Source: a virus (lineage: Duplodnaviria; Caudoviricetes). Taken from it: 64,000 nucleotides of DNA. The notes beneath the pieces are model-generated. The model was not told where the DNA came from. It worked only from the letters and a program-made list of their open reading frames with translations, and made no database searches. Below are positions 3,045 to 37,794 of the stretch, in pieces. The DNA lies in IMG/VR virus record IMGVR_UViG_3300028591_000073, positions 64,001 to 128,000 of that record; one strand, given 5' to 3'. Positions within the stretch are counted from its first letter, which is position 1. Every line of letters begins with the position of its first letter. Position numbers and translations under genes: made by a program.

Positions 3045-6000
3045 TTAATTTATACCATATCCAAGGTGTTCCAAATTGTTCGATCTTGTCAAGGTGTATG
3101 TCTTTTCATTAATCTGTAATGGATTATTGAATGAATTGATTGTTTTAGATTGTACCGTAATTTGCATTGGCAGATAATTCTCTAATGGACGATATCCAAG
3201 TTGAGAAGTTTGTGCACTGGACTTACCATCACGCAATCCAATTACACCTTTATCGTATATATAGCAATATACATTTGCTCCAGTATTTCCAACATTTCCT
3301 GTATTAAAGAATCCATCTGGTTCACCATCTTCCCAACTCTTTGTTTGTAACCATTTGCCAATATCCAATACAATTTTCGGCCGCGTTGTATAATTGGTAC
3401 CATTTGTATTATAACCATATGCTGCTAATAGTAATTGATTTTTGGGATTCTCCGATGTTCCCCAATTCACCGTCTTCAATTGCAATGAAGTAAAACATGA
3501 AGAATATCCATACAATGTGTGAACTGTCGATGGATCATCTTTTGTAATACAATAAATCGCAGATCCATAATTAAATGAATCATTTGTGATGGAGTTGCTA
3601 TTAACTGCCCCGCAATAACACAATACGTCATCATTTGCAACGAAACAAGCATGCCTGTTTGTCGTGGAATCATTAAATCCACCCCATGTTTCCAATAATT
3701 GTGTTAAGGTGCGTTCATTCAAATCATACATCCAAAATGAGTATATATTATTTTTGTCATTCATTCCAATGTAAGCATAATGTGAAAAACCAATTCCACC
3801 ACTATATGTTCCACCGATAAAGTTTGGATCAATTTCAAAAGAATCGATAACTTTTGGATCACCATTTCCATCTATGGGATCTGTCATATCAATCACATTC
3901 CAATGTTGTAATTCCACGCCTTCAGAAATGTCATTATATATCATTTTATTGGATGATCCTTTGATCACAATACCATGTTTTGCATTCTTAATACATGGAG
4001 CATCAGATCCATAATTCTTATTATTTGTATACCAAACATCCCTAATGGTTGTATCCATACCACGATATTTCACCATTGCAACTTTCATATATTTTGCATC
4101 TGGATGTGTGATAACATATGGGGTATATCTTATGCTGATATTGTGTAAGATATTGTGATTCTCGTCATATACAATACCACACCATTCATTTCCACCACTT
4201 GGGCTATATTCGGAATAGAACTGGGTGAAAAACATAACACAATCACCTTGTTCAATTTCAAGATATTCTTCATCTTTCATGATCCATTGATAATTATAAT
4301 AATAATCATGGTCATTATTACAAACAGCTCTCCATTCTGTCGAGTCCGCATATTTACATTCCAACATTAATTTGATATTTGATTCCGTAGTTGGATATTG
4401 CGTTTCCGCATCAATATTAGTATCAAATATGGTAATGCATGCTGGATAATTGGTTAAAGCATTTCCTTCCTCATCAAAATATTCAGTGGAAGTTGAAATG
4501 GAGTTTGTAGATAATATCATAAATCGATGATTATGATCTTCATAAGCATCCACAGTTGGATATTTTGGTCCAAAGAAATGATTCTTTAAAGAACCACAAG
4601 TATTGCCATATCCAGGTATGATGGATTCTTGTGTGATATCTTGAAATGTGATAAACTGACATAATGTATTGTAACTTGCCACTTTATTGAATGGAGAAAG
4701 ACGATATACAATATTCTTACCATTTGCAATTCGAGAATGATATAATGAAACAAACAATTTATCATGTTGAATAAAATATTGCTTATCACATTCCAATGTA
4801 TTTTGGGAACCTCGACCTGGCTCACCTTTCATTTTAATCACATAATTCCCAATTGTAAAGTATTTGTATTCATCATCACCAATCATTTCAATAATATCAT
4901 GGTTTGTAATAGTTAATGCATCATCTTCATCTGTTGTGTCATTGTGTTTTGTCAAATATGTGACATCTGTTTGGGGAATGACTTTGGGTAAACATTCTTC
5001 TTTAAATGTAACATCAATAATACGTTTTTTCAGCTCAGAAGGTGCATACATTACAAAATATTTCTTTTGTACCAAAAGCTGATGATTGGATGGATCTTCT
5101 TGTGTTGACACATCACCAAGATTTACAAATTGAATCCATGTCGATGTATCCCAATATTTATCCGCAGCAAATAATATAATACCCGTTACATTAAATGATG
5201 ATATGATCATTCCAGGATGTATACCATCATAATCAGTATCACCATCTTTATGTGCAAATGGATTAAAGTAACATAATATGTCACGTTTCACACCATCTGG
5301 ACAAATGAAATTATTCAATATGATATTCTCAATAAATGTTCTCCATCCACCATAATAGTATGCTGGTATCGTAATATCGATTGGGATATCACATTCTTTT
5401 GTATCATAATTGAACAAATAAGCTTTTGTGATAGAAGATGGATTTTCAACACATGTGATGGGCATCAATCCATTCTTGTATGATGTATCTGCAACCAATC
5501 CAAATTGGTCACTGATATTGAGATCGATTGTGGTATTACAATAAATTTCAGTCGTAATTTCATCAGCTTCATCCAACTCATCAAACGTAGTTAACCAACA
5601 CCATTTTGAAAAATCGGTGGTATAATTTGTATTATTGGGATACATATCTCCCGAATAAGTATCACCAAATACAAAATGGGAAATAAAACACCATTTATCT
5701 TCCATGAGTCTACGGGATGTTTTAAGTTGATATGTGATTGATACACCATCATCAGTTCCATATGGATTATTATCCCATGGGTACCCTTCACCTTCTTCAG
5801 TTAATTTGTGTTCATAAAAACTACCGTACATGTTCAAATAGGAATAACTGTAACCATCATCGTGCCAGAAATTGGTAATTGGATTTTGATTACTCCATGC
5901 TTTAGCTCTCATATTACCCGAAACAGGAGCGATATAAACTGCAACATTATTCCGGTTATTGCCATTATTATATCCTTGCGGATTTAATAATAAATACTTT

Positions 6001-17822: not shown

Positions 17823-18263
17823 TTACTTCTTAAAATGTTTCATTGCATTCTCTTTGAAATCGAGATATCTCTCAGGCGGATATGCAGATTCATTCTTGAT
17901 TGCGTTCTTACGACGAGTACACGTGGATGGTGAATAACCGGTGAATGCTGCAATCTCACGTACACGATATCCCATATCAAATAAGACATTGATTGCCATG
18001 ACTTCATCATCAAATGTTTTGAAATCAAATATCTTAAAACGATATGTGCGATGGTATTGTCTCTTGACAGTTTTGCTGACTCTGGTATATTCCCATATGA
18101 TGAGTTTCCCATCATGTGTTTTTGCACGAACGAATGTCACATCTGTCAATGGATTCGTTACCATCGCAATTTCTCTGATGTCATTGGTATCAATTTCATG
18201 ATTTGCATATAATGCAAGACCAGCATCTACTGCACTTACGATTGTAATTTTTTCTTGTTTCAT
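17823..18263 (-). CDS. Hypothetical protein with C-terminal helix-turn-helix, 146 aa
   Basis: LFDMGYRVREIAAFTGYSPSTCTRR is HTH-like. Start reassigned to MKQEK (18263) because the upstream extension is the structured RNA. Confidence 0.6.
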   Translation of the reverse strand: MKQEKITIVSAVDAGLALYANHEIDTNDIREIAMVTNPLTDVTFVRAKTHDGKLIIWEYTRVSKTVKRQYHRTYRFKIFDFKTFDDEVMAINVLFDMGYRVREIAAFTGYSPSTCTRRKNAIKNESAYPPERYLDFKENAMKHFKK

Positions 18264-18266
18264 AAT

Positions 18267-18398
18267 GTTAATCCTGACATATTGTTTCCTACCCATAAGA
18301 ACTAATGTTCTTGGCGATAGGCTCATACCGTGTGTCGCCACGGCTGTTTATATTCACGAATCAAGTAAGTCAGGAACAACCTACTTTCTTAAATTATT
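18267..18398 (-). ncRNA. Structured RNA element, copy B (unassigned family)
   Basis: Stems UCCUGAC/GUCAGGA, CCGUG-GCGACA-CACGG, CCUAUC/GGUAGG and AAGAAC/GUUCUU; covaries with copy A. Confidence 0.65.
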
Positions 18399-18520
18399 TT
18401 ACGACATACAAATGTCCTTGATTGTGAATTTTCTCATACTCCAAGAGTTTATTTGTCTTAATGCTTCATTACGTAGATTGATAGCAGCATTATAATCTCT
18501 ATCAATTACTAATCCACTTT
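18399..18520 (-). pseudogene. tnpB: TnpB (IS200/IS605/IS607 family) C-terminal remnant
   Basis: Minus-strand translation ..ESGLVIDRDYNAAINLRNEALRQINSWSMRKFTIKDICMS* contains the TnpB RuvC-III motif DRDxNAAxN. There is no start codon and no upstream part of the gene. Confidence 0.8.
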
Positions 18521-18641
18521 CCGACAATGTTTCTTACCCAAGGACACCATTGTGTTCAGACAGTAAGCTCATACCCAGTGTCGCCTGGGCTGTTTATCAC
18601 ACATTAAGTAAGTCAGGAGTTCCTCACTTTCTTAAATTATT
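18516..18641 (-). ncRNA. Structured RNA element, copy A (unassigned family)
   Basis: Stems CCUGAC/GUCGG, CCCAG-GCGACA-CUGGG, CUUAC/GUAAG and ACAC/GUGU; linkers CUGACUUACUU, AUAAACAG, UAUGAG and AAACA are identical to copy B. Confidence 0.65.
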
Positions 18642-18652
18642 AAATCCTCCAT

Positions 18653-19741
18653 TTATAGCCCAAAAAAATAATAACGCCACATTTCTTTTACGTATGATTC
18701 ACCCATCGAACTCAGGTATCTCAAATCTTCAATAAACTGTTTCTCCAATTGCTCCTTATCAGAACCCCTTTTATCAAATAACATAGCAAGCAAGTCCTCA
18801 ATACACATTTGTTCAATTTCTGGTTCATCTTTCACATCTTCATCAAGGTCCATAGCCGCTGTCATCTTGTCAATCTTTTCTTTTTCTTTAGATTTCAGAT
18901 ATTCTTCCTCCATTTTTGAGAACACATTACACAGTTCATCGAAAGCTTCATTGATAGATTTCTTATCCTCTTTGTAAGATTTTTTATTATTCTCCATCTC
19001 ATCCAATACGTTGGAACCTTGTGCTTTTCCGACCTTGGTTGAGACATGGAAAATGCTATCGATTCTGGTTTTGTGGTTGATGTAGAAGTCTTTATCATAT
19101 TCGATGTCTTCAAACAAAGGAAGCATCTTCTTACGGAATTCCAGCAGAAGTGCAATTGCGATTTCTCTAATATTCGGATGTGCAGAAGAAGCACATCTGA
19201 GTTCAAAGAAATGTCTCCATGCACGAATGTCCATGGTGACTTTCATATTTACTTTCAGTGCTTGGGGAAGTACTGCCCTGGCTTCCTGAGGTTTTGCACC
19301 ATTCTTGATAAGCTGATTATATGCGTAAGCAGCAGTTTCACAAGCTTCTTGGAAAATCTTATAACGGATATCCAAGGCTTTTCCATCAGGGAATACCTTT
19401 GCATTTTTATCATATTCTACAGGAATAATGAATTCAACACCTTTAGAATAGTTGACATAACGTGTGGACTCAACGGAATATCCAACACCAATTCTATGGC
19501 GTGTCCATTCTGCAAGCACATCACGTGACGTAATCACATCTACTGTGACAGATTGGTGTTCCAATACGGATGTGTGTCCACTCTTGATAATTCCACGAAG
19601 GAAATCAGCCGTCGGTTTTGTATGTTGCTTGAATTCAGACTGGTAACAGGTCCTTGCACATTTTTCCAGATTTCTCATAATGTGAAAACCGTTTACATCA
19701 TCAACAAACTGGGCACTTGGGGTAATTAATTCAATACTCAT
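18653..19741 (-). CDS. thyX: FAD-dependent thymidylate synthase with acidic C-terminal extension
   Basis: ARTCY, GHTSVLEH, RHRxxxxxSVESTRY, EARAVLP and HFFELRC..AHP.IR motifs. Confidence 0.95.
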   Translation of the reverse strand: MSIELITPSAQFVDDVNGFHIMRNLEKCARTCYQSEFKQHTKPTADFLRGIIKSGHTSVLEHQSVTVDVITSRDVLAEWTRHRIGVGYSVESTRYVNYSKGVEFIIPVEYDKNAKVFPDGKALDIRYKIFQEACETAAYAYNQLIKNGAKPQEARAVLPQALKVNMKVTMDIRAWRHFFELRCASSAHPNIREIAIALLLEFRKKMLPLFEDIEYDKDFYINHKTRIDSIFHVSTKVGKAQGSNVLDEMENNKKSYKEDKKSINEAFDELCNVFSKMEEEYLKSKEKEKIDKMTAAMDLDEDVKDEPEIEQMCIEDLLAMLFDKRGSDKEQLEKQFIEDLRYLSSMGESYVKEMWRYYFFGL

Positions 19742-37494: not shown

Positions 37495-37794
37495 ATGGAA
37501 TTGAAGATTAATCTACAGGAACTCGAGAAACTCGGCATTAGAAAGACGAAATCCAAAAAGGGAACGTCAAATGCAGAACTCAAAAGAATACGAAAACAAA
37601 TCAAAAAAGAAGAACGCGGCGAATCATGGATTCATGAAATCATCCGTGTTATTAAGAGAATTATCAAAGGTGATATTCGGACAGCGGAACCCGAATTTGT
37701 TCATTTATATGACGCCGAAAGAGATGTCATATATCTGGATAAATGTTATCGCCCTGAGGAACTCGGTATCTATGAAATTGAAATGAAGGACTGA
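37495..37794 (+). CDS. Hypothetical basic protein
   Basis: GAAAGGA RBS. Confidence 0.65.
   Translation: MELKINLQELEKLGIRKTKSKKGTSNAELKRIRKQIKKEERGESWIHEIIRVIKRIIKGDIRTAEPEFVHLYDAERDVIYLDKCYRPEELGIYEIEMKD

What the first reader, a model, noticed from the sequence alone, without database searches (positions are those of the whole stretch)
18267..18641. Two tandem copies of a covarying ~125-nt structured RNA that I cannot assign to a known family
Seen: both copies begin AAUAAUUUAAGAAAGU and keep identical linkers (UCCUGACUUACUU, AUAAACAG, loop GCGACA, UAUGAG, AAACA), while the stems change compensatorily: CCCAG/CUGGG versus CCGUG/CACGG, CUUAC/GUAAG versus CCUAU/GUAGG, ACAC/GUGU versus AAGAAC/GUUCUU. 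A stem CCUGAC/GUC(A)GG closes each. In copy B the closing stem pairs with an AGGA 8 nt before the HTH gene's AUG, and the element also sits between an upstream SD-like GAAAGUAGG and that AUG. Inference: a multi-stem riboswitch-like, ribozyme-like or transposon-linked RNA under structural selection, directly downstream of thyX and upstream of an HTH gene and a DHH phosphoesterase gene.
Basis: partly seen in the sequence, partly recalled or inferred. Interest (0 to 1): 0.8.

Follow-up and report, generated by a model that had tools for sequence, protein, structure and literature searches.

The report
Orphaned TnpB guide-RNA scaffolds in phage
The two repeated ~125-nt structured RNAs are leftover guide-RNA (omega-RNA) scaffolds of a TnpB RNA-guided-nuclease element inserted between a jumbo phage's thyX and HTH genes. 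This is a known kind of RNA, in a compact form missing from RNA databases, and is not a riboswitch or ribozyme.

Summary
Two direct repeats lie on the minus strand: copy A at 18641-18521 and copy B at 18398-18274. They share linkers, and their stems differ by compensatory changes. They are not contiguous. The 122 nt between them is the 3' tail of a tnpB gene (RuvC-III motif and stop codon).

A third copy follows the stop codon of the genome's one intact 416-aa TnpB, 53 kb away. Every close TnpB homologue fetched carries the RNA in that position, ending at a fixed GUCAG followed by locus-specific sequence. A covariance model of the core finds it after tnpB in phage and Bacillota loci down to about 31-35% TnpB identity. 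Covariation is strong: 94.6% of cells paired and 16 of 18 pairs with double changes. Rfam gives no match.

Relatives with an empty site show the whole block is one insertion after GGAG, between the HTH gene's ribosome-binding site and its start codon. Copy B's would-be guide matches that empty site 16/16.

Verdict: these are omega-RNA scaffolds of an ISDra2-type TnpB homing element, here 5'-truncated and orphaned. They may still be usable in trans. This scan had already reported the intact copy elsewhere in the genome. Riboswitch and ribozyme readings are not supported. Interest is moderate.

The parts
18647..18650 (-). GGAG directly left of the insertion. It is the candidate TAM and the remainder of the ancestral ribosome-binding site of the HTH gene.
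   Evidence: Empty-site relatives L175 and L174 read GGAG followed directly by the sequence that now follows copy B.
18642..18646 (-). A 4-5 nt copy of the first bases of the right flank (GATT+T) at the left junction.
   Evidence: The same rule holds in other elements.
18521..18641 (-). Copy A: a complete omega-RNA scaffold (stem 1, P1, P2/P3, terminal GUCGG) with no tnpB upstream.
   Evidence: CM R1 scores 82.5 bits, E 2e-23. Fold. Its 3' half is 92% identical to the scaffold of L170.
18518..18520 (-). Three A residues of filler between the end of A and the tnpB remnant.
   Evidence: Homology to intact tnpB genes starts at base 4 of the 122-nt spacer.
18399..18517 (-). tnpB 3' remnant: about 39 codons with the RuvC-III D-R-D-x-N-A-A-I-N motif and the stop codon at 18401-18399.
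   Evidence: Translation. Weak PF07282 match. blastn hits to phage OrfB/transposase genes. 89-92% nucleotide identity to intact homologues.
18274..18398 (-). Copy B: a complete omega-RNA scaffold that starts right after the remnant's stop codon.
   Evidence: CM R1 scores 100.1 bits, E 4e-29. Fold. Its 3' half is 94% identical to L171/L172.
18364..18385 (-). Stem 1 hairpin of B. The 8-bp form is 18385-18378 paired with 18371-18364. Its loop and 3' side hold CUGAC (18373-18369), the proposed 5' strand of the pseudoknot.
   Evidence: Geometry compared with ISDra2.
18327..18344 (-). P1 hairpin of B: 6 bp with loop GCGACA.
   Evidence: RNAalifold. Pair counts.
18288..18321 (-). P2 (6 bp) enclosing the P3 hairpin (6 bp) of B.
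18274..18278 (-). Terminal GUCAG of B: the right end of the element and the proposed 3' strand of the pseudoknot.
   Evidence: This is the fixed 3' boundary in 11 or more elements. Pairing table.
18258..18273 (-). The 16 nt that would form copy B's guide. It covers the HTH start codon (18263-18261).
   Evidence: It is identical to the 16 nt after GGAG in the empty site of L175. L174 differs at guide positions 5 and 7.
17823..18263 (-). HTH gene downstream (146 aa); context only.
   Evidence: Orthologues are 92-97% identical in L174/L175.
18653..19741 (-). thyX upstream (362 aa); context only.
   Evidence: Thy1 domain, E 2e-47.

Best explanation
Copies A and B are scaffolds of the guide RNA (omega-RNA/reRNA) of an ISDra2-type TnpB element that lives in rumen jumbo phages.

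In the intact element the RNA starts right after the tnpB stop codon. It folds into stem 1, hairpin P1 and P2 enclosing P3. Its last five bases (GUCAG) probably pair with CUGAC in the stem-1 loop to form the guide-adjacent pseudoknot. Transcription then continues into the flank, which serves as the guide. TnpB loaded with this RNA would cut phage genomes that still carry the uninterrupted site (GGAG plus guide match), and repair from the occupied genome would copy the element in (homing).

The block in the window is one insertion after the GGAG of the HTH gene's ribosome-binding site. It holds only 5'-truncated material: scaffold A, then the last ~39 codons of tnpB plus scaffold B. No nuclease gene is present. 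I therefore read it as a by-product of insertion and recombination.

Shown: position, boundaries, covariation, the empty site and the guide match. Inferred: transcription, TnpB binding, the pseudoknot, cleavage, and use of the orphans in trans by the single TnpB encoded 53 kb away.
For: - A tnpB tail lies between the copies.
- A third copy follows the stop codon of an intact 416-aa TnpB with the HTH_OrfB, OrfB_IS605 and Cas12f1-like_TNB domains. The RuvC D/E/D columns are invariant in 49 homologues.
- All 75-84%-identical TnpB loci for which DNA could be fetched (L167-L173, L180-L185) carry the RNA, ending at GUCAG and followed by unique sequence.
- CM R1 hits lie within a few tens of nt of the tnpB end, on the same strand. 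This holds in 20 further loci of the viral and metagenome sets, with three exceptions (a second, unlinked hit in L081, a second tandem core in L019 and a weak hit in L025), and in 13 of 14 bacterial hits.
- De novo RNAalifold recovers the three helices, with 12 of 18 pairs changed compensatorily.
- On 29 sequences, 94.6% of cells are paired and the covariation score is 0.762, against 0.26 in shuffles and about 0.1 with slid partners.
- Empty sites in L175, L174 and L178 fix the insertion after GGAG. B's guide matches L175 at 16 of 16 positions.
- The best solved relative is ISDra2 TnpB, E 6e-46. In its omega-RNA, nt -5..-3 pair with -105..-103 in the stem-1 loop (PMC10097598). That is the same geometry as CUGAC (about -99..-95) with GUCAG (-5..-1) here.
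- A sister subfamily keeps a stem 1 with a different 5-6 bp complement to its own 3' end.
Against: - There is no expression or binding data.
- The pseudoknot has no true covariation, because both strands are nearly invariant. It competes with the top 3 bp of the 8-bp stem-1 hairpin that the energy model prefers.
- Four close members (L168, L169, L181, L185) lack stem 1 and CUGAC yet keep GUCAG.
- The scaffold lacks the extra 3' hairpin(s) found in ISDra2 and in the bacterial relatives, so activity cannot be assumed by analogy.
- No Rfam omega-RNA model matches.
- How A came to abut the tnpB tail is unresolved.
Confidence: 0.88

Rival explanations
1. The helices act as single-stranded DNA, as the right-end hairpins recognised by a Y1 TnpA transposase, and not as RNA.
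For: IS200/IS605 ends do carry DNA hairpins. Bacterial relatives of this TnpB have a Y1 TnpA directly upstream.
Against: In the autonomous bacterial copies the TnpA-type hairpin is shared by the left and right ends. It is a separate element 3' of the core, and the phage family lacks it. The phage genome has no Y1 TnpA. Many pairs are G-U on the tnpB strand only. The left ends are ragged, which a TnpA-defined end would not be.
Confidence: 0.04
2. It is a riboswitch-like or attenuator-like cis-regulator of the HTH and DHH phosphoesterase genes. Pairing with the 3' GUCAGG would mask the AGGA ribosome-binding site.
For: The terminal pairing overlaps the AGGA 8 nt before the HTH ATG. The insertion must have some effect on translation of the HTH gene.
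Against: Orthologous HTH genes in L174 and L175 have no such RNA. Downstream genes differ at every locus: DNA polymerase, virion genes and unknowns. The only constant neighbour is tnpB. There is no Rfam riboswitch match above noise.
Confidence: 0.03
3. It is a self-cleaving ribozyme or an IStron-like self-splicing intron associated with tnpB.
For: IStrons combine group I introns with tnpB and its omega-RNA (bioRxiv 10.1101/2023.11.20.567912, listed). The element sits inside transcription units.
Against: No group I, group II or small-ribozyme model matches in the window or in 12 related loci. The element lies in an untranslated spacer, so splicing is not needed. The conserved RNA is at the 3' end only, and the left ends vary.
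Confidence: 0.03
4. It is a neutral local tandem duplication of non-functional sequence.
For: There are two copies 243-246 nt apart, with no nuclease gene at the locus.
Against: A and B are about 75% identical to each other but 92-94% identical, in their 3' halves, to scaffolds in other phages. Every difference inside a helix keeps pairing. Both score as high as scaffolds next to intact tnpB.
Confidence: 0.02

Closest known systems
ISDra2 TnpB omega-RNA (reRNA) of Deinococcus radiodurans, IS200/IS605 (PDB 8EXA/8BF8/8H1J; PMC10097598)
   Same: Closest solved protein relative, E 6e-46 over residues 14-398. In both, the RNA sits at the 3' end of tnpB and ends at the transposon's right end, with the flank used as guide. 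Scaffold length is similar (116 nt against 121-125 nt). Both have a stem 1 whose loop can pair with the last bases before the guide.
   Different: Here the scaffold lies entirely after the stop codon. It lacks the guide-proximal hairpin (stem 4) and ends in GUCAG instead of the GUUCAC-type end seen in more distant relatives. The left flank is GGAG/RRAG, not TTGAT. The phage copies have no TnpA and no TnpA hairpins.
IS607 TnpB with RAGATH-18-derived reRNA (ISFba1; PMC11061315)
   Same: The reRNA is wholly downstream of the coding sequence. The experimentally determined TAM is AGGAG, like the left flanks here.
   Different: No RAGATH-18 match at any threshold. The protein is nearer to ISDra2 than to the next solved TnpB-like chain, 8iaz, which I take to be ISFba1 without having checked its identity (E 6e-46 against 1e-29). 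There is no serine recombinase, and bacterial relatives carry a Y1 TnpA. The scaffold is about 60 nt shorter.
Rfam TnpB-associated models RF02998 and RF03065 (named as such in bioRxiv 10.1101/2023.03.14.532601)
   Same: They are structured RNAs at the 3' side of IS605 orfB/tnpB.
   Different: Neither reaches even E = 10 on this region or the gathering score on 12 related loci.
Non-autonomous IS200/IS605 derivatives (PATE/MITE-like elements; named from my own knowledge)
   Same: These are transposase-less remnants that keep element ends. The orphans L269 and L273 in a related phage are about 330-nt mini-elements.
   Different: The window's copies keep no left end at all. What is conserved is the guide-RNA scaffold, not a pair of TnpA hairpins.

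Membership tests
TnpB omega-RNA / reRNA (OMEGA guide RNA) | Encoded at or just beyond the 3' end of tnpB, on the same strand. | tested here: met
   Copy C lies after an intact tnpB. The same holds for all fetched close homologues and for CM hits in viral, metagenome and bacterial loci. In the window itself only a tnpB tail is left.
TnpB omega-RNA / reRNA (OMEGA guide RNA) | The conserved scaffold stops at a sharp boundary (the right end), followed by locus-specific sequence that serves as guide. | tested here: met
   All elements end at GUCAG (A at GUCGG), and the flanks are unrelated.
TnpB omega-RNA / reRNA (OMEGA guide RNA) | Conserved secondary structure supported by covariation. | tested here: met
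   12 of 18 pairs are compensatory; 16 of 18 pairs show double changes, no shuffle of 500 reaches the observed covariation score or percentage of paired cells (4 of 500 reach the count of pairs with double changes), and the slid controls collapse.
TnpB omega-RNA / reRNA (OMEGA guide RNA) | Guide-adjacent pseudoknot with a 5' segment (conserved in TnpB and Cas12 guide RNAs). | tested here: inconclusive
   CUGAC/GUCAG can pair in 9 of 9 members but is invariant. The geometry matches ISDra2. A sister subfamily has a different complementary pair. The 5' strand is absent in 4 members.
TnpB omega-RNA / reRNA (OMEGA guide RNA) | The vacant site consists of a TAM followed by a match to the guide. | tested here: met
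   L175 has GGAG plus 16 of 16 identity to the flank of B. L178 is the empty site for copy C. The TAM itself is inferred from nine left flanks.
TnpB omega-RNA / reRNA (OMEGA guide RNA) | The RNA is made, bound by TnpB and directs DNA cleavage. | not testable with these tools
   No transcript or biochemical data are available.
IS200/IS605 insertion sequence | Mobilised by a Y1 (HUH) TnpA. | tested here: not met
   None in the 294.5-kb phage genome. It is present directly upstream of tnpB in bacterial relatives L189, L193, L200 and L241, so the clade is IS200/IS605-derived but the phage copies are not autonomous.
IS200/IS605 insertion sequence | Matching sub-terminal hairpins at both ends, exact ends, and no target duplication. 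| tested here: not met
   The bacterial copies L200 and L241 meet all three. The phage copies lack the right-end hairpin. Their left junctions lie 14-97 nt before the ATG, and they repeat 4-8 nt of the right flank after the AG (empty sites).
IS607 / RAGATH-18 reRNA | RAGATH-18 motif in the RNA and a serine-recombinase TnpA. | tested here: not met
   No Rfam match. No resolvase domain in the genome.
Riboswitch or other cis-regulatory leader | Conserved upstream of one functional class of genes, independent of mobile-element genes. | tested here: not met
   Downstream genes differ at every locus. Orthologous HTH genes lack the RNA.

The most novel reading that the evidence does not exclude
These jumbo phages run TnpB as a TnpA-free, multi-guide homing system. 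One nuclease gene serves several dispersed scaffold-plus-guide units, including orphans such as copy B, whose guide perfectly matches the vacant allele of sister phages. New copies would arise by TnpB cutting followed by one-sided copying from the right end inwards and microhomology joining at the TAM-proximal stub. That would explain the exact right ends, the ragged or truncated left ends and the 4-8 nt repeat of the target start. Such a layout, one nuclease with several repeat-plus-guide units, would be a natural intermediate on the road from transposon guide RNAs to CRISPR-like arrays.
Probability: 0.3. Interest if true: 0.7.

Novelty: new variant of a known kind. Interest (0 to 1): 0.4.

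Why it matters
It removes an apparent 'unknown structured RNA' from the list. It also supplies a covariation-supported model for a compact omega-RNA that is missing from Rfam, lies wholly outside the coding sequence, and is paired with a roughly 410-aa TnpB whose flanks suggest an AGGAG-like TAM. That is useful for annotation and possibly for miniature genome editors.

The locus, together with its relatives, also gives sequence-level clues to how TnpB elements persist in phages that have no transposase. Three related phage genomes hold 10 scaffolds for 4 tnpB genes. Right ends are exact and left ends are ragged. The insertions sit between a ribosome-binding site and a start codon, and the vacant alleles match the guides.

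Tried and rejected
- Rfam at gathering score on the whole window, at E up to 10 on 18150-18750, and at gathering score on 12 related loci gave only noise.
- An exact-pattern scan of viral contigs for the P1 region found nothing, because it was too strict.
- A single-protein scan of viral contigs gave one distant locus. The alignment-based scans worked.
- Three encoding-contig look-ups included a place that came back without DNA.
- I considered and rejected IS607 membership. An AGGAG-like flank fits, but there is no RAGATH-18 motif and no serine recombinase, and the protein is nearer to ISDra2.
- I considered a retro-copying (target-primed reverse transcription) origin for the truncated copies. 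No reverse transcriptase domain is present in the genome, so a DNA-templated repair model is preferred.
- I tried to explain the junction between A and the tnpB tail by the 9-nt similarity between the right flank and an internal tnpB site. The observed junction keeps two more tnpB bases plus three A residues, so that simple crossover does not fit.
- A fourth weak CM hit in the genome (G000 37559-37622, 18.8 bits) looks like coding sequence that shares only the 3' tail motif. It was not pursued.
- No structure or complex prediction was run. It would not bear on an RNA question.

Full report
**Observation**

All genes in this stretch run on the minus strand. Read that way, two direct repeats are present. 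The repeat finder gives a spacing of 243-246 nt. The pairwise alignment shows identical linkers and stems that differ on both sides.

Comparison with other elements fixes the 3' ends at 18521 for copy A and 18274 for copy B. The copies are therefore 121 and 125 nt long.

**What lies between and around**

The 122 nt between the copies translate in frame to the C-terminal tail of a TnpB, with the RuvC-III motif and a stop codon at 18401-18399. Supporting evidence:
- a weak PF07282 match;
- blastn hits to OrfB/transposase genes of Lak, Clostridium and Campylobacter phages;
- 89-92% nucleotide identity to the 3' ends of intact homologues, starting at base 4 of the spacer.

The window is part of a 294,548-bp viral record. 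That record holds a third copy of the RNA 53 kb away. It starts right after the stop codon of the only intact tnpB, which encodes 416 aa with the HTH_OrfB, OrfB_IS605 and Cas12f1-like_TNB domains. The RuvC D, E and D columns are invariant across 49 homologues.

My data agree with that note.

**Linkage to tnpB elsewhere**

Fifteen metagenomic proteins are 75-84% identical to this TnpB. In every case where DNA could be fetched (L167-L173, L180-L185), the RNA follows the gene and ends at GUCAG, after which the sequences are unrelated.

A covariance model of the 86-nt core gave these results:
- It finds the RNA in two other jumbo-phage contigs with 52-56% identical TnpB.
- It gives weaker but significant hits next to TnpBs of about 31-41% identity in viral, metagenome and bacterial loci. 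Nearly all hits lie within a few tens of nt of the tnpB end, on the same strand.

**Structure**

RNAalifold on a plain MAFFT alignment of 11 members predicts three helices, with 12 of 18 pairs changed on both sides:
- P1, 6 bp with loop GCGACA;
- P2, 6 bp;
- the enclosed hairpin P3, 6 bp.

On 29 sequences, 94.6% of cells are paired. Sixteen of 18 pairs carry double changes. The covariation score is 0.762, against 0.26 in shuffles and about 0.1 when partners are slid. That alignment was fitted to the model, so the slid controls are the fairer comparison.

Upstream of P1, nine members share a hairpin that I call stem 1.

It also competes with the top three pairs of stem 1. Its geometry matches the ISDra2 omega-RNA, where nt -5 to -3 pair with -105 to -103 in the stem-1 loop and stack on stem 1 (PMC10097598). 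A sister subfamily (L008 and its orphans) has a different stem 1, whose loop is complementary to its own, different 3' end. I rate the pseudoknot as likely, at about 0.7, but not shown. Four members lack stem 1 altogether.

**Ends, vacant sites and guide**

Two relatives whose HTH proteins are 92-97% identical lack the whole block. In them GGAG is followed directly by the sequence that now follows copy B. A, the tnpB tail and B are therefore one insertion, between the ribosome-binding site and the start codon of the HTH gene.

The 16 nt after B are identical to the vacant site of L175. L174 differs at guide positions 5 and 7. A vacant site for copy C (L178) shows the same rule.

Across nine loci the base run before the junction is AGGAG, TGGAG, GAAAG, TTAAG, GAGAG or ATGAG, which makes an RRAG-type candidate TAM. 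This resembles the AGGAG TAM measured for IS607 TnpBs (PMC11061315). However, the protein is closer to ISDra2. No RAGATH-18 motif or serine recombinase is present.

**Family placement**

Bacterial relatives in Bacillota, including rumen Lachnospiraceae, carry a Y1 TnpA directly upstream. Two copies in one genome have exact ends, no flank repeat, and matching left-end and right-end hairpins 3' of the RNA core.

The phage family differs in four ways:
- It has no TnpA.
- It lacks the right-end hairpins.
- Its left junctions lie 97, 97, 71, 70, 55, 18 and 14 nt before the ATG.
- It repeats 4-8 nt of the right-flank start immediately after the AG. In the shuffle test, 0-12 of 2000 shuffles reached the observed match for five loci. 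One locus has a 121-nt repeat.

Exact right ends with ragged left ends suggest a particular route of spread. Copying would start at the right end after a TnpB cut and be sealed by microhomology at the TAM-proximal stub. This is inference only.

**Origin and present role of the block**

A and B are about 75% identical to each other but 92-94% identical, in their 3' halves, to scaffolds in other phages. Copy C is a mosaic of the two types. They are therefore two alleles brought together by recombination or successive events, not a local duplication.

The same layout, a right end followed by a tnpB tail remnant and then a second scaffold, recurs in an unrelated viral contig, L019.

No sigma-70-type promoter or terminator lies on the minus strand here. 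The scaffolds would therefore be part of the thyX-HTH transcript.

Orphan scaffolds are common. Three related genomes hold 10 cores for 4 tnpB genes. Two orphans in G005 are mini-elements with the same deletion architecture at different loci, which argues for action in trans. Whether A and B are used by the distant TnpB is open, at about 0.3.

**Rivals**

- Riboswitch or leader: the only constant neighbour is tnpB, and orthologous HTH genes lack the RNA.
- Ribozyme or intron: no model matches, and the site is untranslated.
- DNA hairpins for TnpA: the true TnpA hairpins of the bacterial relatives are separate elements, and they are missing here.
- Neutral duplication: contradicted.

**Verdict**

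This is a known kind of RNA, the TnpB omega-RNA, in a compact variant that Rfam does not cover. In this window it is present as two orphaned scaffolds.

Noticed in passing
L167-L185, L005, L008; window 18642-18650: In the phage copies the left junction always follows an AG (mostly AGGAG). It is followed by a 4-8 nt copy of the first bases of the right flank. The distance from this junction to the tnpB ATG varies from 14 to 97 nt. The autonomous bacterial relatives (L200, L241) show neither feature.
   Followed up: partly
L169:2861-2981 and 4314-4434: A 121-nt, 87.6%-identical duplication of the right flank sits immediately upstream of tnpB, in place of a left end.
   Followed up: partly
G004 (L268, L270, L272) and G005 (L267, L269, L271, L273): Orphan scaffolds outnumber tnpB genes: 3 cores for 1 gene in G004, and 4 for 2 in G005. 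L269 and L273 are about 330-nt mini-elements (left-end hairpin, short hairpin, last ~25 nt of tnpB, scaffold) at two different loci. L270 is an internally deleted tnpB fused to the scaffold.
   Followed up: partly
L019:3601-3875: A distant viral contig shows the same layout as the window: a scaffold and right end, then a tnpB tail remnant of about 60 nt, then a second scaffold. Here it lies downstream of an intact tnpB.
   Followed up: no
L005:2665-2720 (minus strand); same in L170, L172, L183: A conserved 12-bp inverted repeat upstream of tnpB has its 3' arm covering the tnpB start codon, with the ribosome-binding site in the loop beside it. It could act as a left-end hairpin or as a translational brake.
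   Followed up: no
L174:1985-2005: The vacant thyX-HTH spacer of this close relative differs from copy B's guide at positions 5 and 7, in the TAM-proximal part. It may be an allele that escapes cutting.
   Followed up: no
L167, L170, L180 (genes upstream of tnpB): HNH_3/NUMOD4 homing-endonuclease-like genes lie within about 3 kb upstream of the TnpB element (directly adjacent only in L180) in three unrelated contigs.
   Followed up: no
window 18328-18343 and 18574-18589, plus strand: The complement of P1 followed by a T-rich run scores as a terminator-like site on the opposite strand in both copies. This is probably incidental.
   Followed up: no
L007:3807-3900: Four more GTCAG motifs occur within about 100 nt downstream of the right end of this element. 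They could be chance or relics of right-end tails.
   Followed up: no
window 18653-19741: The thyX product is 362 aa, but the Thy1 domain covers only residues 24-206. The long, charged C-terminal extension is unexplained.
   Followed up: no
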